The notes beneath the pieces are model-generated. The model was not told the DNA's origin, ran no database searches, and saw only the letters and a list, made by a program, of their open reading frames with translations. A stretch of DNA of 32,000 nt, taken from Synechococcus elongatus PCC 6301. Lineage in GTDB: Bacteria; Cyanobacteriota; Cyanobacteriia; Synechococcales; Synechococcaceae. The position numbers and the translations under genes were made by a program. Location: the NCBI RefSeq assembly GCF_000010065.1, contig NC_006576.1, positions 2,348,051 to 2,380,050 on the forward strand, in the 5' to 3' direction. Shown in pieces: positions 22,375 to 30,719 of the stretch (within the stretch, counting starts at the first letter, position 1; every line of letters begins with the position of its first letter).

Positions 22375-22845
22375 ATGCCGCAGGTTGTGCTCTATCAGCC
22401 CGAAATCCCGCCCAATACCGGCAATATTGCACGCACCTGTGCCGCAACAGACACGCCCCTGCATCTGATCGAGCCCTTGGGGTTTGAACTGAGCGATCGC
22501 TATCTCAAGCGAGCGGGCCTCGACTACTGGCCTTACGTCCAGCTGACGACCCATCCTGATTGGTCCGTATTTCGGCAACAGCAGCAACAGCAGGGCGGCC
22601 GACTGATTGCGTTTACAACCAAAGGGGAATTGAACTATCTCGACTGTGACTTTCAAGCCACTGATTGGTTGCTGTTTGGGCGAGAAACTAGTGGCCTACC
22701 GGAAGATGTTTTGGCCAGCTGTGACCATCGCGTTCGTATCCCCACACCTCAAGCAGGAGTGCGCAGTTTGAATCTGTCGGTGAGTGTAGCGATCGGATTA
22801 TTTGAAGCGCGGCGACAAGTTTACTTTGCGACTAATCCTGCCTAG
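22375..22845 (+). CDS. trmL: tRNA (cytidine/uridine(34)-2'-O)-methyltransferase TrmL (SpoU/TrmH family)
   Basis: VVLYQPEIPPNTGNIARTCAAT...LHLIEPLGF...RAGLDYW and the C-terminal knot region RIP...RSLNLSVSVAIGLFEA. It contains a Q6 insertion (FRQQQQQQGG). Confidence 0.85.
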   Translation: MPQVVLYQPEIPPNTGNIARTCAATDTPLHLIEPLGFELSDRYLKRAGLDYWPYVQLTTHPDWSVFRQQQQQQGGRLIAFTTKGELNYLDCDFQATDWLLFGRETSGLPEDVLASCDHRVRIPTPQAGVRSLNLSVSVAIGLFEARRQVYFATNPA

Positions 22846-22922
22846 TTTGAGACTATTACAGCGGAGTCTTGGCAACGCTCTCAATGAACTGACTGAGATT
22901 GGAGCCATGTTTTAGCCTGAAC

Positions 22923-23603
22923 TTAGGGATAGTCGCGAATCACATAGCCAACGCCTCGCACTGTCTGTAAAATTCGTTGCGGATTTGAGGCTTCTAGCTT
23001 TAATCGCAATGCTCGAATATAGACTTCAATAATATTAGACTCGCCCATGAAGTCATACCCCCAAACTTGCTCAAGAATTTGGTCACGGGTAACGACTTGT
23101 CGAGCATGTCTTAGGAGAAACTCGAGCAGATCAAACTCCTTAGCTGTCAGCTCTAGTCGTTGACTCCCTCGATAAACTTCATGGGTTAGACGATGGAGTG
23201 ATACATCAGCAAACTGCAGGCGATCGGGCTCTTCTGGATTGACCCGACGTAATTGCGCCTTAACTCGTGCCAGCAGCTCCTCGATGCTGAAGGGCTTTGT
23301 GACATAGTCATCAGCCCCTGAGTTTAACCCCGAAACGCGATCGGAAATTTCATCCTTAGCTGTCAATAAAATGATTGGTGTTTGAACACCAGTCGATCGT
23401 AGCCTCAAGCAGATATCAACTCCAGAAAGAGTTGGTAACATCCAGTCCAGAATGAGTAAATCGGGTTGAATACTTCTTGCTAAAGATAGACCGTCTAGAC
23501 CGTTGTTGGCAACTGTTACTTGATAGCCTTCTAAGCTGAGTTCTTGCTCAACAAACAGCAGAAGCTTCGGGTCATCCTCAATGAGCAAAATATGATTGTT
23601 CAT
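22923..23603 (-). CDS. OmpR/PhoB-family response regulator (receiver + winged-helix)
   Basis: The receiver has ILLIEDD...LLILDWMLP...LLTAKD. The winged helix has LTAKEFDLLEFLLRH...VRGVGYVI. Its ATG overlaps the kinase stop as ATGA (23600-23603). Confidence 0.9.
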   Translation of the reverse strand: MNNHILLIEDDPKLLLFVEQELSLEGYQVTVANNGLDGLSLARSIQPDLLILDWMLPTLSGVDICLRLRSTGVQTPIILLTAKDEISDRVSGLNSGADDYVTKPFSIEELLARVKAQLRRVNPEEPDRLQFADVSLHRLTHEVYRGSQRLELTAKEFDLLEFLLRHARQVVTRDQILEQVWGYDFMGESNIIEVYIRALRLKLEASNPQRILQTVRGVGYVIRDYP

Positions 23604-25048
23604 GGCAAGGATTCCCAGTTGGGTAAGATGATGGTGAAAGTACTGCCTTCCCCTAGTTTAGACCGCAGCGTAATTTTGCCCTGCATGCCTTCAATCAAGC
23701 TTTTGGCAATTGCTAATCCTAGCCCAGTTCCATCACGCGATCGTGTCATGGCTTCATCCACTCGGTAAAATCGCTCAAAAATGCGACTTTGGTGAGCAAG
23801 AGGAATTCCTACTCCTTGATCGATTATGTGAATTAAGGTCTGTTGATTAGACTGCTCTAAATTAATGTAGACCACTTGATCTTGATTCGAATATTTGGCT
23901 GCGTTATCTAGCAGATTGATCAAAGCTTGCTCTAAACGATTTTGATCAGCGTAGACAACAATTTCACTCTTAGGGGTTTGCATAATAATTTGACGCCCAG
24001 TGACACGTCGTGTCATCTCAGCAACTTCTGCTATCAAAGTATTTAACACAGTCGGCATTAAGCGGAAATGCAGATTGCCGCTATCAACTCTTGCAAGATC
24101 TAGTAAATCTTGAAGCATTCGAATCGTTCTTTCAGCTTCTGCAGATGCTGTTTCTAGGGCTTGATTTTGATAAGAATTAAGATTGTCACCTCTTCTCAAA
24201 AGACTTTGCAGATATCCTGAAATCACTGTGAGGGGCGTTTTTAACTCATGGGAAACATTACCTACAAACTGTTGTTGTTGCTCCCAACTGATCGATAGAC
24301 GATTCAACATGTCATTGAATGCCTTTGCAAGCCCTAAAATTTCCTCGGGAGCGTGGCGAAGTTCAAGAGGATCAGCTCCGAGATCAATGATTGAAATGTT
24401 ACTAGCAATCTGGCTGATCTCCTTAATTGGAGCCATTGCTCTACGGATTCGACTAGCTATCACAACAATCAAGGTAAAAACCAGTAAAATACTGCCTAGC
24501 TGTAGTTGACTAAACAAAGAATCTAACTGTCTTTGATCTTCTGTAATATCTTGAAGCCAATATACATTTCCAATAGGATTTCCATCAAGACTTAGAGCAG
24601 TCTGAGCGAGAATAAAAGACTGCTGCTGTATCTGAAAAACTTTAGGATCATTCGATGCGGGTAACTTGTTAGCCACTTCAATCAGATCACTTGAGGGAAT
24701 ATTCATCCCTCTCGATCGCGCTAAAAGTTCCCCTCTAGGGCTGCGAACCCAAATGAGGAGCCTCGGTTTAGAAACTTGGGCGATCGACCGTTCAAGCTCT
24801 AGTTGAATGGAATCATTGAGACTACTGATCTTAATTATTTCAGGAAAACTATCAGAAATATAACTCAAATTTTGTTTGTAGCCATTAATCAGAGTTTGTT
24901 CTAATCGCCAAGATGACCACAAGGTGATGCTGCATACACCTAATGCGGAGATTAAGGTCAGCTCAAGAGTCAGCCTAAATTGTAAAGAGTTTGTAGCAAC
25001 TCGACTTCCTCCAAGCTTGTTAAAAATTGATTGAATATGGCGAAACAT
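23600..25048 (-). CDS. Sensor histidine kinase (two TM helices flanking a ~140-aa periplasmic domain, then HAMP, HisKA and HATPase_c)
   Basis: H-box VSHELKTPLT, N-box NLLDNAAKYS, G1 DQGVGIP, G2 GTGLGLAIAKS. The periplasmic sensor domain matches no family I recognise. Confidence 0.88.
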   Translation of the reverse strand: MFRHIQSIFNKLGGSRVATNSLQFRLTLELTLISALGVCSITLWSSWRLEQTLINGYKQNLSYISDSFPEIIKISSLNDSIQLELERSIAQVSKPRLLIWVRSPRGELLARSRGMNIPSSDLIEVANKLPASNDPKVFQIQQQSFILAQTALSLDGNPIGNVYWLQDITEDQRQLDSLFSQLQLGSILLVFTLIVVIASRIRRAMAPIKEISQIASNISIIDLGADPLELRHAPEEILGLAKAFNDMLNRLSISWEQQQQFVGNVSHELKTPLTVISGYLQSLLRRGDNLNSYQNQALETASAEAERTIRMLQDLLDLARVDSGNLHFRLMPTVLNTLIAEVAEMTRRVTGRQIIMQTPKSEIVVYADQNRLEQALINLLDNAAKYSNQDQVVYINLEQSNQQTLIHIIDQGVGIPLAHQSRIFERFYRVDEAMTRSRDGTGLGLAIAKSLIEGMQGKITLRSKLGEGSTFTIILPNWESLP

Positions 25049-25107
25049 TGATTTGGCTAGAATTTCCTTTGATCAAGCTGTTGCTTAAGCTTATAAAACA
25101 TTTCTAA

Positions 25108-25150
25108 AGCGAGCAGTACATGATTTTAGTCAAATGCTGAACTGCTCGCT
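25108..25150 (-). terminator. Hairpin between the YHS-protein gene and the kinase gene (possible partial terminator or processing site)
   Basis: AGCGAGCAGT (25108-25117) and ACTGCTCGCT (25141-25150) form a perfect 10-bp stem with a 23-nt loop. It starts 8 nt after the YHS-gene stop, and on the transcribed strand it is followed by TTTAGAAATGTTTTAT. Confidence 0.4.
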
Positions 25151-25157
25151 AGAACTT

Positions 25158-25691
25158 CTATCTTTTTAGGGTGTCATTGTTGAGAATTTTAGGCCAATTC
25201 GCATTTGCTTTTACAATTTTAGTTGCTGTGTCTTGCTTCCATTCCTTCTGGGCTTCTAAACTGTAATTAAGGTAAAGCTTGCCATCGCGAATTTCCCAAG
25301 CATTAGGAATCGTTGTAGCTAAAACACCTGCAGATGCTGCTTTAGCGCAATAACCGCCGTACTGCGGAGCATATTTAGTTGGGTTTTTTGCGAATAAGTC
25401 ACGATTCATTGTGCTTGAGAACTGCCACTTTACACCATTCCAAGTGTGAGTAAATTTTGGACTCCCTTGAACGAGTGAATTGCTTCGAAAATATGCAACA
25501 ACATCTTGGCCATCTAAAGCAATACCATTCTCGTTGTAAACGGCTGGAAAACGAGTGGTTGCTTGAGCGAGCCTAGAATGACTGATAGAAGTTTCGACAG
25601 ATTGAGTAGAGGTTGCAGCTTCTAGGCGGGTAACAACGCTAACAGATGCTAGGCCGACCAAACTGCAGATCAGAAGATAGCTAAGTTTCAT
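25158..25691 (-). CDS. Secreted YHS-domain-family protein (the family annotated as 'YHS domain-containing (seleno)protein'), Cys form
   Basis: The Sec-type signal peptide is MKLSYLLICSLVGLASVSVV. The family-typical core is DGQDVVAYF...GSPKFTHTWNGVKWQFSS..NRDLFAKNPTKYAPQYGGYCAKA...WEIRDGKLYLNYS. AAGGA lies 3 nt upstream of the ATG. Confidence 0.7.
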   Translation of the reverse strand: MKLSYLLICSLVGLASVSVVTRLEAATSTQSVETSISHSRLAQATTRFPAVYNENGIALDGQDVVAYFRSNSLVQGSPKFTHTWNGVKWQFSSTMNRDLFAKNPTKYAPQYGGYCAKAASAGVLATTIPNAWEIRDGKLYLNYSLEAQKEWKQDTATKIVKANANWPKILNNDTLKR

Positions 25692-25948
25692 GGTTCCTTG
25701 ATTGTCCTTGTTCTGCTAAATGACTAATTAAGGTTTCAAGCCTTTGGATGTGAGCTGAAAACAAAAAATCAGATTCAGCTAAAGCAAGATTACCGATGCA
25801 TCACTCGATTTAAGTGATGATTGGATGAGGAGAGGCAAAAGAATGATTAAAAATGAACGATTATCCTGCCCACATTATTCAGGTTTAATTCATTGAGATC
25901 CTGTACAACCTATCCATTTTTCTGACTGATCGCTCAGGACTTATGAAG

Positions 25949-25970
25949 GGTTCAGGTTCCAGTGGGTTCC
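25949..25970. promoter_or_regulatory. Direct-repeat cluster GGTTCA / GGTTCC / GGTTCC, a candidate response-regulator binding site in the divergent intergenic region
   Basis: GGTTCA is at 25949-25954 and GGTTCC at 25955-25960 and 25965-25970. The last two start exactly 10 bp apart, one helical turn. No binding data exist. Confidence 0.2.
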
Positions 25971-26184
25971 TTCTCAAAACTCCTTGGAAACATTTTTATT
26001 GCATTCTCGTCACATCTCCTGTGGCGGCGGGAACTCACGATCGCCTTTGAGAGATTGCTGAGGGCGGCATCCTTACTGGCTATGTGTGCCAGCACACTAG
26101 CCTTACTCCGACCACTGCCGCTCTCATGCAGACTGTAAAGAGATCTTGCAAGTTTGCGTTTTCTGCCCTTCTCATCTTGTCTCC

Positions 26185-27468
26185 ATGACCGTTTTTGCCC
26201 AAGCTCACGCCCGCCTCGGTCTGGCTTGTTTGTTGGTGTCAATCACAGCCTCGGGCTGTCAGATCTTGCCGCCAAGCTCTGCTCAAACCAATCGGGAGCA
26301 GCAGCGATCGCCCATCACTGCGGTGGATGCTGCGGTAGTTGAACGGCAACCCCTCCAAGAAGCCACCCGGTACACCGGCACGACGGAACCTTTCCAATCT
26401 GTGTCGCTGCGGGCTCAAGTTGAAGGTCAAGTGCTGGGGCTTTCCGTCGATGTGGGGGATCCAGTTCAGTCGGGGCAGTTACTCGCCCGCCTAGACGATC
26501 GCCTGCAAAGCACCGCGGTAGTTGCGGCAGCGGCAGAAGTGGCGGCTCGTCAGTCTGAAGTGGCTAGCCAAAGAGCTGAGGTGATTGCTGCTATGGCCTC
26601 CGTCGAGCAAGCTCGCCTCCAGCTCCAACAGGCCCGATCCGATGCAGCCCGCCTAACGCGCCTGTTTCAGGCGGGAGCAATTTCTGCGCAGGAAGCTGAA
26701 ACAGCTCAGACTGCCGTATTGACGGCCGAACAAGCGGTTCGCACTGCCCAACAACAGGTGCAAACCCGTCAACAGGCTGTGGCGGCGGCTGAACGTCGGG
26801 TGGTTGCCCAACAGGCGATCGCCAACCAAGAACAGGCGCGGCGCAACTTCACGCAGCTGATTGCGCCGGTCACCGGTCTGGTTTTAGAGCGCAGTACGGA
26901 AGCAGGTAACCTCGCTCGTGAGGGCGATGAGATTCTCACGATTGGCGACTTTAGCCGCATCAAAGTTGTCCTGCGTGTCTCTGAGCTAGAACTTGCCAAC
27001 CTGCGGGTTGGACAGTCCGTCCAAGTCCGACTGGATGCTTTTCCCAAGCAGACCTTTACGGGGCAAATCAGCCGGATTGCGCCGGTAGCTGATCGCCGAA
27101 CCCGGCTGATTCCTGTGGAAATTACCATGCCTAATCCTGATGGTCGGATAGGCAGCGGTTTATTGGCGCGGGTGGTACTGTCCAGCAGTGCGCCTGACCC
27201 GATCGTCGTCCCTGAAGCGGCGCTCTCGACCGGGGAGACGCCCACTACAAGCGATCGCGGCACTGTGTTCGTCGTCAAAAAGCAAGGCGATCGCACCACC
27301 ACCGAAGCGCGATCGGTGCGGTTAGGACCTCGGGCCGATGGCCGTGTGGTCATTCAAAGCGGCTTACAAGCGGGTGAAACGATCGTGGTGCGCAGTGCCA
27401 GTCCTCTCAAAGCGGGCCAGCAGGTTCGCCTCAGCATTCTGTCCACAGCGGGAGACCAGAACGGATGA
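26185..27468 (+). CDS. Efflux RND transporter periplasmic adaptor subunit (MFP/HlyD family), lipoprotein
   Basis: From the ATG at 26185 there is a lipoprotein signal with a lipobox (MTVFAQAHARLGLACLLVSITASG|C). A long Ala/Gln-rich coiled-coil hairpin, beta-barrel and MP domains follow. The track start at 26146 is TTG and gives a poorer signal peptide. Confidence 0.85.
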   Translation: MTVFAQAHARLGLACLLVSITASGCQILPPSSAQTNREQQRSPITAVDAAVVERQPLQEATRYTGTTEPFQSVSLRAQVEGQVLGLSVDVGDPVQSGQLLARLDDRLQSTAVVAAAAEVAARQSEVASQRAEVIAAMASVEQARLQLQQARSDAARLTRLFQAGAISAQEAETAQTAVLTAEQAVRTAQQQVQTRQQAVAAAERRVVAQQAIANQEQARRNFTQLIAPVTGLVLERSTEAGNLAREGDEILTIGDFSRIKVVLRVSELELANLRVGQSVQVRLDAFPKQTFTGQISRIAPVADRRTRLIPVEITMPNPDGRIGSGLLARVVLSSSAPDPIVVPEAALSTGETPTTSDRGTVFVVKKQGDRTTTEARSVRLGPRADGRVVIQSGLQAGETIVVRSASPLKAGQQVRLSILSTAGDQNG

Positions 27469-30400
27469 GCCCAACGCCGCCTCCGAAGCTCAGCCTCAGC
27501 GGGCTTTCGATTCGTCGCCACATCGGTACCCTGATGCTGACCTTGGCCACAGTGGTTGTGGCAGTCTTTCTTGTCAGTCGGCTTCAGGTCGATCTCTTGC
27601 CGTCGATCACCTATCCGCGAATTGGGGTGCGGCTGACGGCACCGGGACTGGCGCCGGAAATCGCCGTGGAAGAAGTCACCAAGCCCCTCGAAGAATCGCT
27701 CTCGGCGACTGAAGGGGTAGTGCAAATCTTCTCGCGCACCCGCGAAGGCGATGTCAGCATTGACCTCTTCTTCGAGCCGGGAGGAAACATTGACCAAGCC
27801 CTCAACGATGCGACGGCCACCTTCAACCGGGCCCGATCGCGGCTCCCCGAGGGCATTGAAGAGGCACGACTATTCAAGTTCGACCCATCCCAGTTGCCGG
27901 TCTACGAGTTTGCCCTTTCCTCCACTGAGCGATCGCCCCAGGAATTGCGCCTGCTTGCCGAAGAAGAACTGGCCCGAGAGCTGACCTTGCTGCCAGGGGT
28001 CGCAGCGGTTGATGTCACCGGCGGTCTCGAGGAGGAAGTGCGGGTTCTGCTCGACCCCGATCGCCTGCAGGCTTTAGGCATTGGGCTGGAGACCGTCCTC
28101 AATGAATTGCAAGAGAGTAACCAAGATGTTTCTGGTGGCCGACTGCTGGGCAGTGCTGAGCCCCTGACGCGGACAACAGGACGTTTTCAAGACGCCCAAG
28201 ACATTTTAGATCTGACCTTCGAACGAGCGGGTAGCGAAACCGATCCGTCCCAGCAGTTACGGCTGCGAGACTTTGCCCAGGTCATTGACGGCAGCGCTGA
28301 GCAGCGGATTTTCGTCAGCCTCAATGGTCAGCCAGCCGTCAAGGTTAGCGTCCAGAAACAGCCGGAAGCCAACACGATCGCGGTTGTTGACGCTGTTAAA
28401 CAGCGCTTGAACCAACTTCAGGCCAATCAAGTCCTCGGCGAAGGAGTGCAGGTATTGCCGACCTTGGATGAGTCGATTTTTATTCAAAATGCGATCGGTA
28501 ATGTCACCAGCTCCGGTCTGGCTGGGGCTGGCCTTGCCGCGCTGGCGGTACTGCTCTTCCTCGGCTCTTGGCGGCAGACCCTGATCATCGTGATTTCAAT
28601 TCCGCTGGCGACGCTGGCCGCGATCGTGATGATGCGACTAGCGGGCTTCTCCCTCAACATCTTCAGCTTGGGCGGACTGGCACTGGGCGTTGGCATTGTT
28701 GTCGATAACTCGATCGTCATGTTGGAGACCATCGCCGATGGCGTTGGCATCACCCCTGGTCGCGATAGCCGCAGTCTGCTTTCGCCGCGACAGGTGATTG
28801 AGCGGGCGATCGACAGCAGTCAAAAAGTTGAGTCAGCCCTGATTGCTTCAACGACCACCAACTTAGTGGCGGTACTACCCTTTTTGATGCTGGGTGGCTT
28901 TATTTCCCTGCTGTTCAGTGAGCTGATTCTGACGATCAGTTTTGCCGTGGCGGCTTCAATTTTGGTGGCGCTGACGGTTGTGCCGGCTATGGCCTCGCGA
29001 CTGTTGGCTCGCAAGGAAACCAGTGGTCTCGATCGCTGGCCCCCGCTGCTGGCCTTTCAGCACCAATTTGCTCGACTGCAAACGGCCTATGGTCAGGTGC
29101 TCCAGCGTCTGATCAACCGGCCGCTGCGCACGATCGCGATCGCTTTTCTCGTCTTGGGTCTGAGTGGCGCCTCCTTGCTGGGCCAGCTCTCCCAGGAGAT
29201 TCTGCCTCGGATTAATACAGGCCAAGCGCAGCTCTTTGTCCAGTTCCCACCAGGTACTCCCTTGGTGGACAACCAACGGGTGATGGCGGCGATCGAGCAG
29301 TTGATCCTCGAGCAACCCGAAACAGACTATGCCTTTTCGACGATTGGGGGCTCCCTGTTTGGGGCCAATACGACCACCAACGTTCTACGCAGTTCCAGCA
29401 CAATCACGCTGAAACCTGGCAGTGATGTCGATCAGTTTGTTGAACGACTGACGCCCGCCTTCAACCAACTCAATTTGGTGGATACCTTGGTGCGGGTCAC
29501 CCCAGGCTCAGTACGCGGTTTGATCACCAATAACTCGCCGCTACGCGGTGCCGATATCGACGTCATTCTCCAGAGTGAAGATCGCGAACAACTGGCGATC
29601 GCGGGTGAACAGGTGATGCGAGCTCTGGGGCAAGCGCAACTCGCCCGCTATCGACCCGACAGCGATCGCCGCGAACCAGAATTGCGAATCCAGCTCGATC
29701 GCGAACGAGCAGCGGCTCTCGGCCTGAATCCCAGTCGCGTGGGCAATACAATTCAAACCGCGATTGAAGGTTCGATACCAACCCGTCTACAGCGGGGCGA
29801 TCGCCTGGTGGATGTGCGGGTGGAAGTTGCCAACACGGCCATCAATACGCCGGCTCAATTGCTGCAGCTGCCGCTGTTTAGCAACACGGGCTCGCTGATT
29901 CGCCTCAATGACATTGCCCGTCTTGAGACGGGGGCTGCCCCCTCCGAAATTCAGCGGATTAACCAACGACAGGTCTTCCAAATTGCCGGCAACCTCAGTC
30001 AAGGTGCCAGCTTGAGTGCTGCGATCGCAGAGGCTGAGCGCCTGATTGACTCCGTCGATCTCCCCTCGGGAGTCAGTTTGTTGCCCAGTAGCGCTGCCGA
30101 GAGCAACCGGCAGTTGCAGGCCAGTCTGCCGATTCTGGGTGGCTTGGCTGGCTTCTTGGTCTACGTGGTCATGGCGGTGCAGTACAACTCGCTGATCGAT
30201 CCGCTAGTGATCATGTTCACGCTGCCTCTGGCCTTAGCCGGTGGCATCCTGGGGCTCTACTTCACGAACACCGCGATCGGTGCAACGGTCGTCGTTGGGG
30301 TGGTGCTACTGGTTGGGATCGTCGTCAATAACGCGATCATCCTGGTGGAACTGGCCAATCAACTGCGGGAAGAGCAGGGCTGCGATCGCCGCTCGGCCAT

Positions 30401-30719
30401 ACTGCAAGCGGCCCCGCAACGCCTTCGCCCCGTGCTGATGACGACACTCACTACCGTGCTGGGGATGTTGCCCTTGGCGCTGGGCATTGGTCAGGGCAGT
30501 GAGTTCCTGCAACCGCTGGGGATTGTCGTTTTCTCGGGGCTCTCCCTGGCAACGGTGCTAACCCTGCTGGTCATTCCCTGCTTCTACGTGCTGCTCCATG
30601 GGCTTGCTGAGCGCTGGACCCAGCATCCTTTGACAGTGACGGCCCTGCCGTTCGTGCCCGGGGGGCTGCCGCGTCCTTCGGTGGGCTCCACAGCAGACAA
30701 GTCCTCGATTGACCCCTAG
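27465..30719 (+). CDS. RND efflux transporter permease (AcrB/AcrD/AcrF superfamily, 12-TM, 1084 aa)
   Basis: It has the typical N-terminus LSIRRHIGTLMLTLA, TM4 GLALGVGIVVDNSIVMLE, TM10-11 GIVVNNAIILVE, and two large periplasmic loops. Its ATG overlaps the adaptor stop as ATGA (27465-27468). Confidence 0.9.
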   Translation: MSPTPPPKLSLSGLSIRRHIGTLMLTLATVVVAVFLVSRLQVDLLPSITYPRIGVRLTAPGLAPEIAVEEVTKPLEESLSATEGVVQIFSRTREGDVSIDLFFEPGGNIDQALNDATATFNRARSRLPEGIEEARLFKFDPSQLPVYEFALSSTERSPQELRLLAEEELARELTLLPGVAAVDVTGGLEEEVRVLLDPDRLQALGIGLETVLNELQESNQDVSGGRLLGSAEPLTRTTGRFQDAQDILDLTFERAGSETDPSQQLRLRDFAQVIDGSAEQRIFVSLNGQPAVKVSVQKQPEANTIAVVDAVKQRLNQLQANQVLGEGVQVLPTLDESIFIQNAIGNVTSSGLAGAGLAALAVLLFLGSWRQTLIIVISIPLATLAAIVMMRLAGFSLNIFSLGGLALGVGIVVDNSIVMLETIADGVGITPGRDSRSLLSPRQVIERAIDSSQKVESALIASTTTNLVAVLPFLMLGGFISLLFSELILTISFAVAASILVALTVVPAMASRLLARKETSGLDRWPPLLAFQHQFARLQTAYGQVLQRLINRPLRTIAIAFLVLGLSGASLLGQLSQEILPRINTGQAQLFVQFPPGTPLVDNQRVMAAIEQLILEQPETDYAFSTIGGSLFGANTTTNVLRSSSTITLKPGSDVDQFVERLTPAFNQLNLVDTLVRVTPGSVRGLITNNSPLRGADIDVILQSEDREQLAIAGEQVMRALGQAQLARYRPDSDRREPELRIQLDRERAAALGLNPSRVGNTIQTAIEGSIPTRLQRGDRLVDVRVEVANTAINTPAQLLQLPLFSNTGSLIRLNDIARLETGAAPSEIQRINQRQVFQIAGNLSQGASLSAAIAEAERLIDSVDLPSGVSLLPSSAAESNRQLQASLPILGGLAGFLVYVVMAVQYNSLIDPLVIMFTLPLALAGGILGLYFTNTAIGATVVVGVVLLVGIVVNNAIILVELANQLREEQGCDRRSAILQAAPQRLRPVLMTTLTTVLGMLPLALGIGQGSEFLQPLGIVVFSGLSLATVLTLLVIPCFYVLLHGLAERWTQHPLTVTALPFVPGGLPRPSVGSTADKSSIDP

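What the first reader, a model, noticed from the sequence alone, without database searches (positions are those of the whole stretch)
22850..26020. A 3.2 kb AT-rich island with no HIP1 sites carries a three-gene sensory module: secreted YHS-family protein, sensor kinase, OmpR-type regulator
Seen in sequence:
- GCGATCGC occurs about 90 times in the window by my manual count, but not once between 22501 and 26303. About 11 copies would be expected there.
- Sampled lines in that interval fall to about 35% GC against about 60% elsewhere.
- The segment holds exactly three same-strand genes: YHS-family periplasmic protein, a hairpin, histidine kinase, then response regulator (ATGA-coupled to the kinase).
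- No integrase, tRNA or clear terminal repeats mark the edges.

Inference: this is a relatively recent horizontal acquisition of a complete periplasm-sensing circuit. The YHS-family protein carries the conserved YGGYC motif, whose Cys is a selenocysteine in some homologues. It could act as the ligand- or redox-sensing accessory partner of the kinase, and I know of no described role of that kind for this protein family.
Basis: partly seen in the sequence, partly recalled or inferred. Interest (0 to 1): 0.6.

Follow-up and report, generated by a model that had tools for sequence, protein, structure and literature searches.

The report
Foreign YHS–kinase–regulator operon island
A 3.2-kb AT-rich stretch in Synechococcus elongatus was acquired from other cyanobacteria and carries a secreted single-cysteine protein of unknown function with a sensor kinase and its regulator; the pair belongs to a widespread, unstudied cyanobacterial system usually linked to periplasmic thiol-reducing genes.

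Summary
Window 22,846-26,081 has 42% GC against 56-60% in the flanks. It has no HIP1 site in 3.8 kb where about 12 are expected (P about 4e-6). It holds three minus-strand genes: a YHS_seleno_dom protein, a histidine kinase and an OmpR-type regulator.

It is a horizontal acquisition, but neither simple nor very recent.
- A sister species and a third lineage carry the same island.
- A closer relative has a different kinase allele (68% identity) and no YHS gene at the same site.
- A recombination breakpoint lies inside the regulator gene.

The kinase/regulator pair belongs to an uncharacterised orthogroup found in about half of 401 cyanobacterial genomes searched. It is usually cupin-kinase-regulator, next to periplasmic TlpA-like thioredoxin and DsbD/CcdA-like genes. 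A conserved 11-bp-phased repeat box lies upstream of these operons. A matching box (TGAAT-N6-TGAAT, twice in 2.7 Mb) sits 201 bp upstream of the YHS start codon.

Across the YHS family, two-component neighbours are not enriched. This particular pair, however, became linked to YHS at least three separate times.

Most likely the operon is self-activated and YHS is its periplasmic thiol-based output. A co-sensor role is not excluded: both YHS-first operons carry His57-to-Tyr in the kinase sensor. I rate it a new variant of a known kind, of moderate interest.

The parts
22846..26081 (.). Compositionally foreign island: 42% GC and no HIP1 site
   Evidence: Right edge: homology to L180 and to the G001 RND locus stops at 26,082. 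Left edge: the trmL stop is at 22,845.
25158..25691 (-). YHS_seleno_dom protein, 177 aa. It has an N-terminal export signal, an invariant Cys115 in APQYGGYC, and no other conserved Cys.
   Evidence: NF041384 150.2 bits against a cut-off of 70; Pfam YHS only 21.2 against 30.3. Alignments of 20 and 91 homologues. AlphaFold model pLDDT 84.9, above 95 for residues 45-177. No PDB relative. dN/dS 0.086 against G001.
25108..25150 (-). Stem-loop 8 nt after the YHS stop, followed by a U-rich run. Probably a partial terminator or RNA-stabilising element.
   Evidence: MFE -29.2 kcal/mol, z -2.7. G001 has a hairpin of different sequence at the same place, z -4.3. Inverted repeat I3.
23600..25048 (-). Sensor histidine kinase, 482 aa: TM1 about 26-44, periplasmic domain about 45-180, TM2 about 180-200, then HisKA and HATPase_c. 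The sensor lacks His57, Glu62, Arg67, Tyr75, Arg143 and Cys148, which are conserved in orthologues.
   Evidence: dN/dS 0.12 overall and 0.10 in the sensor domain.
22923..23603 (-). OmpR/PhoB-type response regulator, 226 aa, ATGA-coupled to the kinase. A recombination breakpoint lies at about 23,300-23,490.
   Evidence: Sliding-window identity among G000, G001 and L180.
25877..25892 (-). Candidate regulator box TGAATTAAACCTGAAT: two direct repeats at an 11-bp period, 201 bp upstream of the YHS ATG and in the same orientation as YHS.
   Evidence: The exact TGAAT-N6-TGAAT occurs twice in the 2.7-Mb genome; the other copy lies inside a 727-aa ORF. It is conserved in G001 and L097 at -200 and -199. 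It resembles the conserved box of orthologous loci.
25860..25865 (-). -10-like hexamer GATAAT, 5 nt after the end of the 22-bp box, with no -35 element (pho-box-like geometry). Inferred.
   Evidence: Read from the sequence. Partly conserved as GATAGT and AACAAT in G001 and L097. The consensus promoter scan did not call it.
22375..22845 (+). trmL, the native left flank. Its 3' 341 bp are duplicated at the far end of the island in G001.
26146..30719 (+). Native RND adaptor (26,146-27,468) and RND permease (27,465-30,719), divergent from YHS. Regulation by this system is possible but not conserved.
   Evidence: The RND genes lie elsewhere in G001. They are adjacent in L097 and L180.

Best explanation
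The segment at window 22,846-26,081 is an old, horizontally acquired island. It carries a probably self-activated operon: yhs, kinase, regulator.

The kinase/regulator pair belongs to a widespread but uncharacterised cyanobacterial orthogroup. Its usual form is cupin-kinase-regulator next to genes for a periplasmic thiol-reducing pathway: TlpA-like thioredoxins, a DsbD/CcdA-like membrane protein, sometimes TrxB/Trx, and in several genomes a YHS protein.

Proposed mechanism:
- On an envelope signal, the kinase phosphorylates the regulator. The signal is inferred to be thiol-oxidative or thiophilic metal(loid) stress.
- The regulator binds the 11-bp-phased TGAAT repeats about 200 bp upstream of yhs.
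- It activates a promoter that lacks a -35 element.
- The hairpin after yhs lets the YHS transcript accumulate over the kinase/regulator read-through.
- YHS is exported and acts as the periplasmic output through its single invariant Cys, which is a selenocysteine in some homologues.

Shown: the composition, gene content, orthology, conserved neighbourhoods, box conservation, purifying selection and mosaic history. Inferred: binding of the regulator to the box, the nature of the signal and the biochemistry of YHS.

The island has moved among S. elongatus lineages by homologous recombination through its flanks, not by an integrase.
For: Composition and HIP1:
-.

Acquisition and recombination:
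- In the kinase tree, G000, G001 and L180 form one long-branched clade next to a Leptolyngbyaceae-like group.
- Mosaic pattern: from 25,840 to 23,300, G000-G001 identity is 0.82-0.92 while G000-L180 is 0.46-0.73. The relation reverses from 23,290 to 22,490.
- YHS is 6-10 points more similar between lineages than the adjacent adaptor and pump genes.
- dS is 0.53-0.59 for YHS and the kinase, against 0.87-2.2 for flank genes.
- G001 carries diverged duplicates of the trmL 3' end and the adaptor 5' end at the island's far edge. This is what a single crossover with a circular [trmL3'-island-adaptor5'] fragment would leave.

Orthogroup and neighbourhood:
- The sensor domain is found in 198 of 401 cyanobacterial genomes.
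- In 43 loci: cupin upstream in 27, DsbD-like in 25, TlpA-like in 24, TrxB/Trx in 4-6, YHS in 2.
- YHS is also linked in L018, L056 and L079.

Box:
- The consensus ...AGATGAATTTTTGCTGAAG, with TGA units every 11 bp, is found in 27 of 45 orthologous loci. It points at the divergent TlpA/DsbD or YHS gene, with a perfect match upstream of YHS in L018 and L152.
- A relaxed form occurs in 18 of 43 upstream regions, against 0.026 per 400 bp of background.
- A forward box lies 118-301 bp upstream of the first operon gene in about 15 loci, the same geometry as -201 in S. elongatus.

Function retained:
- dN/dS is 0.06-0.12 for all three genes.
- A hairpin is kept in the same position in G001, with a different sequence.
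Against:
- The S. elongatus box differs from the 16-nt consensus at 5 positions, and at 3 in G001.
- The S. elongatus kinase has lost the periplasmic residues that are nearly invariant elsewhere (His57, Glu62, Arg67, Tyr75, Arg143, Cys148). Its signal may therefore differ from that of the canonical module.
- The seven closest non-genus YHS homologues have no two-component neighbour.
- The family has no conserved partner gene overall.
- The lower dS of YHS and the kinase may partly reflect their AT-rich composition rather than later transfer.
Confidence: 0.55

Rival explanations
1. Co-sensor. YHS is a periplasmic accessory that senses a ligand or redox change through Cys115 and passes it to the kinase. 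It would replace ligand residues the kinase has lost. It could be both a target and a modulator, as CpxP and ZraP are.
For: - YHS takes the first-gene position that the cupin holds elsewhere.
- His57 is Tyr in both independent YHS-first operons (S. elongatus and L079), but His in 45 of 46 other orthologues. Fisher P = 0.0027 on very few events.
- Cys148 is also lost in S. elongatus.
- The sensor domain is still under purifying selection, dN/dS 0.10.
Against: - In L018, L056, L152 and L153, YHS sits downstream of the outward-pointing box, in the position of the TlpA/DsbD effector genes. Those kinases keep His57 and Cys148.
- L180 has a kinase that lacks Cys148 and other conserved residues but has no adjacent YHS.
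- There is no interaction evidence.
Confidence: 0.25
2. Metal-efflux circuit like CopMRS/CopBAC. The two-component system senses a metal and controls the divergent RND pump. YHS would be the periplasmic metal-binding partner, like CopM or CusF.
For: - The kinase's best family hit is the heavy-metal sensor model TIGR01386. The regulator's second-best hit, after NblR, is the heavy-metal regulator model TIGR01387. All of these are below cut-off.
- The island abuts the RND operon in G000, L097 and L180.
- In L180 a four-unit phased box lies 179 bp upstream of the kinase and points at the RND operon.
- Some cyanobacterial YHS proteins carry (NPCAxK)n Cys repeats.
Against: - In G001 the RND operon is about 680 kb away from the island.
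- In G000 the box points at yhs, away from the adaptor gene.
- The pump scores higher against multidrug models (648 bits) than against CusA/CzcA (414 bits, cut-off 701).
- YHS is not a CopM/DUF305 protein, and the gene order differs.
- The Synechocystis pSYSX CopS is not among the listed best plasmid hits, whereas orthologues on pAQ7 and pPg_02 are.
Confidence: 0.15
3. Decaying or silent remnant. The module lost its cupin, its TlpA/DsbD partners and its sensor ligand residues, and no longer functions.
For: Loss of residues conserved in more than 40 orthologues. No linked thiol-reductase genes in S. elongatus.
Against: - dN/dS is 0.06-0.12 between two species, with all three frames intact.
- The promoter-region blocks and the hairpin position are conserved.
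- An identical kinase sequence is recorded on 256 contigs.
Confidence: 0.04
4. Not horizontal transfer. The low GC and missing HIP1 would reflect local selection or mutation bias on vertically inherited genes.
For: The island is present in at least three S. elongatus-clade lineages at the same site.
Against: - GC3 is shifted by about 0.25.
- The kinase phylogeny is discordant with the core genes, and the identity pattern is mosaic.
- L180 carries an alternative allele without YHS.
- YHS occurs as a single-gene insert at another locus in L175.
- Kinase orthologues lie on plasmids of other cyanobacteria.
Confidence: 0.02

Closest known systems
cpxP-cpxRA and zraP-zraSR of Enterobacteria (from established knowledge)
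   Same: An envelope-stress two-component system with a small secreted periplasmic protein encoded beside it. That protein is a main regulon target and can also modulate the kinase. The regulator is of the OmpR family in the Cpx case.
   Different: YHS_seleno_dom is unrelated to the CpxP/ZraP/Spy fold. Here it is the first gene of the same operon rather than a divergent gene. ZraR is an NtrC-type regulator. The signal here is unknown.
CopMRS/CopBAC of Synechocystis sp. PCC 6803 (Giner-Lamia et al. 2012, as summarised in PMC13421787)
   Same: A cyanobacterial operon encoding a periplasmic protein with a kinase and an OmpR-type regulator. It is self-activated, lies next to an RND efflux operon, and also occurs on a plasmid.
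   Different: Gene order is protein-kinase-regulator, not protein-regulator-kinase. YHS is not CopM (DUF305). The kinase is not a close CopS relative. The RND pump scores as a multidrug type rather than a heavy-metal type. RND linkage is not conserved in G001.
YHS domain-containing (seleno)protein family, NF041384 (Zhang and Gladyshev 2007, PMC1976440; review PMC9312934)
   Same: A clear member: 150 bits against a cut-off of 70, with the invariant YGGYC motif whose Cys is Sec in some members.
   Different: The family has no assigned function in those papers. The regulatory link found here is not described in any paper located.
Scs (suppressor of copper sensitivity) and TlpA/DsbD-type periplasmic reducing pathways under envelope two-component control (from established knowledge)
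   Same: The canonical form of this cyanobacterial module pairs the kinase/regulator with a DsbD/CcdA-like membrane protein and TlpA-like periplasmic thioredoxins.
   Different: S. elongatus lacks those linked genes; only YHS is linked. No experimental tie to copper or any other stress exists for the cyanobacterial module.
HIP1-poor, low-GC xenologous genes catalogued in S. elongatus PCC 7942 (Delaye et al. 2011, PMC3025956)
   Same: The same criteria (low HIP1, deviant GC and codon usage) were used genome-wide. That study noted that transferred genes cluster in operons and are enriched in signal transduction.
   Different: I could not confirm that these three genes are on their list, because the held supplement is truncated. 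The allelic mosaic and the link to the orthogroup are not discussed there.

Membership tests
YHS_seleno_dom (NCBIfam NF041384) | HMM score above the curated cut-off | tested here: met
   150.2 bits against 70, covering profile positions 2-113 of 113.
YHS_seleno_dom (NCBIfam NF041384) | Conserved YGGY(C/U) motif | tested here: met
   APQYGGYC; C115, Y111, G112 and G113 are invariant in 91 sequences. This copy has Cys, not Sec.
Pfam YHS domain (PF04945) | Score above the gathering threshold | tested here: not met
   21.2 bits against 30.3, matching only residues 80-111. This is a distant YHS-like module, not the classical metal-binding YHS/TRASH domain.
Heavy-metal sensor kinases CusS/SilS/CopS/CztS (TIGR01386) | HMM score above the cut-off | tested here: not met
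   232.6 bits against 292.55, although it is the best-scoring model over the full length.
Heavy-metal sensor kinases CusS/SilS/CopS/CztS (TIGR01386) | Two transmembrane segments around a periplasmic domain, then HisKA and HATPase_c | tested here: met
   Hydropathy peaks at 26-44 and about 180-200. HisKA and HATPase_c by Pfam. HAMP is called in homologues.
OmpR/PhoB response regulators | Receiver domain plus winged-helix Trans_reg_C | tested here: met
   PF00072 at 1e-28 and PF00486 at 1e-27. No equivalog model reaches its cut-off.
Cyanobacterial cupin-kinase-regulator module (defined here) | Orthologous periplasmic sensor domain | tested here: met
   37-49% identity over residues 1-250 to the best matches in other genera, and down to about 27% among weaker matches. 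Matches in 198 of 401 genomes at E<=1e-10. The S. elongatus kinases lie within the tree.
Cyanobacterial cupin-kinase-regulator module (defined here) | Cupin gene immediately upstream of the kinase | tested here: not met
   Present in 27 of 43 loci. No homologue in the S. elongatus genome. YHS holds that position.
Cyanobacterial cupin-kinase-regulator module (defined here) | Conserved sensor residues His57, Glu62, Arg67, Tyr75, Arg143 and Cys148 | tested here: not met
   S. elongatus G000 and G001 have Tyr, Ser, Ser, Ser, Gln and Ala at these positions.
Cyanobacterial cupin-kinase-regulator module (defined here) | 11-bp-phased TGA-type repeat box upstream of the operon or its divergent partner | tested here: inconclusive
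   A two-unit box is present at -201 and conserved in three lineages. It differs from the 16-nt consensus at 5 positions. Binding was not tested.
Cyanobacterial cupin-kinase-regulator module (defined here) | Adjacent TlpA-like and DsbD/CcdA-like genes | tested here: not met
   Present in 24-25 of 43 loci. Not adjacent in S. elongatus, which has only weak paralogue hits elsewhere.
CopMRS/CopBAC | CopM-type periplasmic protein, copM-copR-copS gene order, heavy-metal RND pump | tested here: not met
   YHS matches no CopM family. The order is protein-kinase-regulator. The pump scores 414 bits against a CusA/CzcA cut-off of 701.
Integrase-mediated genomic island | Integrase gene, tRNA target, flanking direct repeats | tested here: not met
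   No tRNA and no terminal repeats. The flanking genes are TldD, TrmL and RND genes.
Integrase-mediated genomic island | Deviant composition | tested here: met

The most novel reading that the evidence does not exclude
The reactive sensing residue has moved from the kinase to a secreted partner. In YHS-first operons (S. elongatus and, independently, L079) the kinase has replaced the otherwise near-invariant periplasmic His57 with Tyr; S. elongatus has also lost Cys148. The exported YHS protein, through its single Cys (Sec in relatives), would detect the thiol-reactive or metal(loid) signal and relay it to the kinase. This would give the YHS (seleno)protein family its first function: a periplasmic thiol/selenol co-sensor of a two-component system.
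Probability: 0.2. Interest if true: 0.7.

Novelty: new variant of a known kind. Interest (0 to 1): 0.42.

Why it matters
The YHS (seleno)protein family has been known since 2007 and has thousands of members, but no assigned function.
- Its repeated, independent linkage to one two-component orthogroup is the first concrete functional lead found here. So is its position downstream of a conserved regulator box that elsewhere precedes periplasmic thioredoxin/DsbD genes. Both point to periplasmic thiol or soft-metal chemistry.
- The orthogroup occurs in about half of the cyanobacteria sampled, including on plasmids of the model strain PCC 7002, yet appears unstudied.
- S. elongatus PCC 7942 is easy to manipulate genetically and has the smallest version of the module, so both questions can be tested there directly.
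- The locus is also a clear small example of island exchange among naturally competent S. elongatus lineages by homologous recombination. Composition has stayed foreign despite about 15-18% sequence divergence.

Tried and rejected
- CopMRS/CopBAC membership: rejected on gene order, protein families and RND type.
- Family-wide enrichment of two-component genes next to YHS: not found. 11 of 80 loci have such a gene and no partner gene is conserved; 0 of 7 closest homologues are linked.
- Further regulon members in the genome by box scanning: 81 sites at 3 or fewer mismatches, most of them inside long ORFs. I treated this as noise. The only other exact TGAAT-N6-TGAAT is intragenic.
- Homologues of the canonical partners in the S. 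elongatus genome: only a TrxB/Trx pair at 1.006 Mb, with no adjacent DsbD or TlpA cluster.
- Structure: a 20-sequence alignment gave a poor model, pLDDT 57. The 91-sequence model is good, but Foldseek against the PDB and HMM searches of PDB sequences found nothing informative. The only hits were repeats in adenylate kinase 9 and the short YHS module of monooxygenase hydroxylases.
- Consensus sigma-70 and terminator scans: no more sites than in shuffles, and they missed the hairpin because its loop is long.
- Literature: nothing on the pAQ7 kinase/regulator or the cupin module. The held Delaye 2011 supplement is truncated, so I could not check this locus.

Full report
**1. Observation**

The window holds 92 HIP1 sites (GCGATCGC), against 1.2 expected in shuffles. 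None lies between 22,501 and 26,303. The gap is 3,811 bp. About 12.4 sites are expected at the window's own rate, giving a Poisson P of about 4e-6.

GC is 0.42 over 22,900-26,050, with a 400-bp minimum of 0.355. The flanks are 0.56-0.63.

The window lies in a single 2,696,255-bp contig. From memory, that is the size of S. elongatus PCC 6301. In this genome (GC 0.555, 7,356 HIP1 sites) the island falls in the lowest 1% of 3.2-kb windows for GC. It is the 10th-largest HIP1 gap and one of 26 low-GC regions.

GC3 is 0.34-0.41 in the island genes and 0.56-0.67 in the flank genes.

The three genes are all on the minus strand:
- YHS, 25,158-25,691, 177 aa. NCBIfam YHS_seleno_dom scores 150 bits against a cut-off of 70. 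Pfam YHS scores only 21 against 30.
- A histidine kinase, 23,600-25,048, 482 aa.
- An OmpR-type regulator, 22,923-23,603, overlapping the kinase by ATGA.

The flanks are TldD and TrmL on one side and an RND adaptor and pump on the other. There is no tRNA, no terminal repeat and no integrase.

**2. History of the island**

*Three other lineages.*
- A sister species (G001, about 80% nucleotide identity) has the same three genes next to trmL. GC there is 0.37-0.47, with a single HIP1 site and 82% nucleotide identity to G000.
- A metagenomic contig from a more distant lineage (L097) has YHS at 82% amino-acid identity and GC 0.41. It is divergent from the same RND operon.
- Contigs L180-L182 come from a lineage closer to G000 than G001 is. 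RND is 88.6% identical in nucleotides and TldD 98.7% in amino acids. Synteny is the same: trmL, regulator, kinase, adaptor, pump. There is no YHS gene, the kinase is only 68% identical, and the regulator is 91.6% identical. Their kinase/regulator segment has GC 0.46-0.50 and five HIP1 sites.

*Mosaic pattern.* A three-way sliding comparison shows it.
- From 25,840 to about 23,300 (YHS, the kinase and the first third of the regulator), G000-G001 identity is 0.82-0.92 while G000-L180 is 0.46-0.73.
- From 23,290 to 22,490 (the rest of the regulator, and trmL) the relation reverses: 0.68-0.78 against 0.81-0.90.
- A breakpoint therefore lies inside the regulator gene.

*Signs of later exchange.*
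- YHS is 6-10 points more similar between lineages than the adjacent adaptor and pump genes.
- dS is 0.53-0.59 for YHS and the kinase, against 0.87-2.2 for the flanks. AT-rich composition may contribute to this difference.
- In G001 the RND operon lies elsewhere. The far edge of the island there carries diverged duplicates of 230 bp of the adaptor 5' region and 341 bp of the trmL 3' end. A single crossover with a circularised [trmL3'-island-adaptor5'] fragment from a G000-like donor would leave exactly this.
- In another S. elongatus-like contig (L175), a YHS homologue is a single-gene insert between genes that are adjacent in G000.

*Source.* In the kinase tree, G000, G001 and L180 form one long-branched clade beside a Leptolyngbyaceae-like group. 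The sensor domain was not found in the two other genomes of the family searched, which are 84-88% complete.

*Conclusion on history.* The kinase/regulator pair entered this clade from other cyanobacteria at the trmL/RND site. The YHS-kinase version was later exchanged among lineages by homologous recombination. 'Relatively recent' is therefore too simple. Composition has stayed foreign through about 15-18% sequence divergence.

**3. The two-component system**

The sensor domain (residues 1-250) has matches at E<=1e-10 in 198 of 401 cyanobacterial genomes. Orthologues at 48-52% identity lie on plasmids, including pAQ7 of Picosynechococcus PCC 7002 and pPg_02 of Pseudanabaena galeata.

In 43 orthologous loci the neighbours are:
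- a 203-aa gene immediately upstream of the kinase in 27 loci; it has no Pfam or NCBIfam match and RefSeq calls it 'cupin';
- a DsbD/CcdA-like membrane protein in 25;
- one or two TlpA-like periplasmic thioredoxins in 24;
- thioredoxin reductase and thioredoxin in 4-6;
- a CopZ_Nterm_CC protein in 1;
- YHS in 2.

On the two plasmids, the genes near the module include:
- TVP38/DedA proteins (both plasmids);
- on pPg_02, a mercuric-reductase-like enzyme, ArsM and ArsS;
- on pAQ7, EgtB and EgtD.

The recurring theme is thiol and soft-metal(loid) chemistry in the envelope. I found no paper on this module.

**4. A conserved box**

Upstream of these operons lies a conserved site with TGA-type units every 11 bp. 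The consensus is aGATGAt-N7-cTaAg-N4-AGATGAATTTTTGCTGAAG.
- It occurs with 3 or fewer mismatches in 27 of 45 loci, in 26 of them 14-220 bp from the first operon gene. It points away from that gene, toward the divergent TlpA/DsbD gene or, in L018, L152 and L153, toward YHS.
- A relaxed form occurs in 18 of 43 upstream regions, against 0.026 per 400 bp of background.
- A forward-pointing site of the type TGAGTCTCAGATGAAG lies 118-301 bp upstream of the first gene in about 15 loci.

In S. elongatus, TGAATTAAACCTGAAT sits at 25,892-25,877, 201 bp upstream of the YHS start and in the same orientation.
- G001 has TGAATTTAAGCTGAAT at -200 and L097 has TGAGTTTAGTTTGAAT at -199.
- The exact TGAAT-N6-TGAAT occurs only twice in 2.7 Mb. 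The other copy lies inside a 727-aa ORF.
- A -10-like GATAAT follows 5 nt after the 22-bp box, with no -35 element. This geometry resembles PhoB-type activation. This is my inference from the sequence.

L180 lacks YHS. There, a four-unit phased box lies 179 bp upstream of the kinase and points at the RND operon.

**5. YHS itself**

The closest relatives outside the genus are cyanobacterial, at 64-67% identity. The family extends to Alphaproteobacteria, Vibrio, Acidobacteriota and other groups.

Sequence features:
- Invariant residues include P109, Y111-G113 and C115 of the APQYGGYC motif, and W132.
- The S. elongatus protein has a Sec-type signal peptide.
- Alphaproteobacterial members carry twin-arginine motifs.
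- Some filamentous cyanobacterial members carry (NPCAxK)n Cys repeats after the signal peptide.

Structure:
- The AlphaFold model built from 91 sequences is confident, with pLDDT 84.9 overall and above 95 for residues 45-177.
- It shows two beta-hairpin-plus-helix units flanking the Cys loop.
- Foldseek against the PDB and HMM searches of PDB sequences find no informative relative.

Gene context:
- Family-wide there is no conserved neighbour. Any two-component gene lies within 2.5 kb in only 11 of 80 loci.
- None of the seven closest non-genus homologues is linked to one. Some lie near Fur-family regulators, rubrerythrin, a peroxiredoxin or a disulfide reductase.
- Linkage to this specific orthogroup recurs in Tychonema (L018), an Oscillatoriaceae genome (L056, in a TlpA-DsbD-YHS gene string), L079 (YHS-kinase-regulator order), and G051 and G232.
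- These fall in three separate parts of the kinase tree, so the linkage arose at least three times.

**6. Is the S. elongatus module functional, and how does it sense?**

dN/dS between G000 and G001 is 0.086 for YHS, 0.12 for the kinase (0.10 in the sensor domain) and 0.058 for the regulator.

A strong hairpin follows the YHS stop in both species, at the same place but with different sequences. The z-scores are -2.7 and -4.3. This fits a higher YHS output relative to the kinase and regulator.

The S. elongatus kinase lacks periplasmic residues that are nearly invariant in more than 40 orthologues. His57, Glu62, Arg67, Tyr75, Arg143 and Cys148 are Tyr, Ser, Ser, Ser, Gln and Ala.

His57-to-Tyr also occurs in L079, the only other YHS-first operon. 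It is His in 45 of 46 others. Fisher P is 0.0027, but this rests on two independent events. L180 keeps His57 but lacks Cys148 and has no adjacent YHS.

**7. Interpretation**

*Best explanation (confidence 0.55).* This is an acquired, self-activated yhs-kinase-regulator operon. YHS is the periplasmic, Cys-based output of a thiol or soft-metal envelope-stress system. The box geometry, the position of YHS downstream of the outward box in other genomes, and the hairpin support the output role.

The two roles are not exclusive; CpxP and ZraP combine them.

*CopMRS/CopBAC-like efflux rival (0.15).* RND adjacency in three lineages and the L180 box support it. Separation of the RND operon in G001, the multidrug-type score of the pump, and the box orientation in G000 count against it.

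*Minor rivals.* Decay (0.04) and non-transfer (0.02) are disfavoured by the selection and phylogenetic data.

**8. Novelty**

HIP1-poor, low-GC islands in this species have been catalogued before (PMC3025956). The YHS selenoprotein family is known (PMC1976440, PMC9312934). The parts are ordinary protein families.

As far as I could find, the following are new:
- the link between the YHS family and a conserved, unstudied cyanobacterial two-component module tied to periplasmic thiol-reducing genes;
- its candidate regulator box;
- the allelic mosaic at this locus.

I rate it a new variant of a known kind, with interest about 0.4.

**Limits**

The recombination inference rests on four lineages.

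Noticed in passing
L012:4629-5348 (G001): At the far end of the island, G001 carries diverged duplicates of the trmL 3' end (341 bp, 84.7% to its own trmL) and of the RND-adaptor 5' region (230 bp, 82.5% to its own copy). Its RND operon lies about 680 kb away. This looks like the scar of a single-crossover insertion of a circular fragment.
   Followed up: partly
L180:7325-10126 (metagenome contig, S. elongatus-like): An alternative allele at the same locus. It has no YHS gene, a kinase only 68% identical, GC 0.46-0.50 with five HIP1 sites, and a four-unit 11-bp-phased box pointing at the RND operon.
   Followed up: partly
L175:5612-6628: A YHS homologue (66% identity, GC 0.505) is a single-gene insert between genes that are adjacent in G000 (genome positions 2,601,827 and 2,601,960). 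It lies near a Fur-family regulator and a rubrerythrin gene.
   Followed up: partly
Alignment A1 (P0035, P0042, P0060, P0065, P0085): YHS proteins of filamentous cyanobacteria carry 3 to about 10 tandem NPCA(S/G/A)K repeats between the signal peptide and the domain. Alphaproteobacterial members have twin-arginine signal motifs instead of Sec-type signals.
   Followed up: no
L014:857-7253 (G021): In another small high-GC cyanobacterial genome, the whole module is lower in GC than its surroundings (0.44-0.51 against 0.57-0.61). The module there is CopZ_Nterm_CC, Trx, TrxB, DsbD-like, TlpA-like, cupin, kinase and regulator. This suggests the module is mobile more generally.
   Followed up: no
L173 (PCC 7002 plasmid pAQ7) and L174 (Pseudanabaena galeata plasmid pPg_02): The cupin-kinase-regulator module is plasmid-borne in model and environmental strains. 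On pAQ7 it lies beside ergothioneine genes (egtB, egtD) and a TVP38/DedA gene. On pPg_02 it lies beside TVP38/DedA genes, a mercuric-reductase-like gene, arsM and arsS.
   Followed up: no
window:25049-25157 and L012:6279-6427: The hairpin after the YHS stop is kept in position in both species but with unrelated stem sequences. This argues for a functional RNA or terminator element.
   Followed up: partly
whole genome G000: 26 regions of 3 kb or more have GC at or below 0.46. Several are much larger and more extreme than this one, for example 1,560,401-1,572,801 at a minimum of 0.346 with an 8-kb HIP1 gap.
   Followed up: no
G000 genome position 756,631 (minus strand): TGAACTTTTGCTGAAG is a one-mismatch copy of the orthogroup's box consensus. 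It lies inside a 432-aa ORF in a region of GC 0.47.
   Followed up: no
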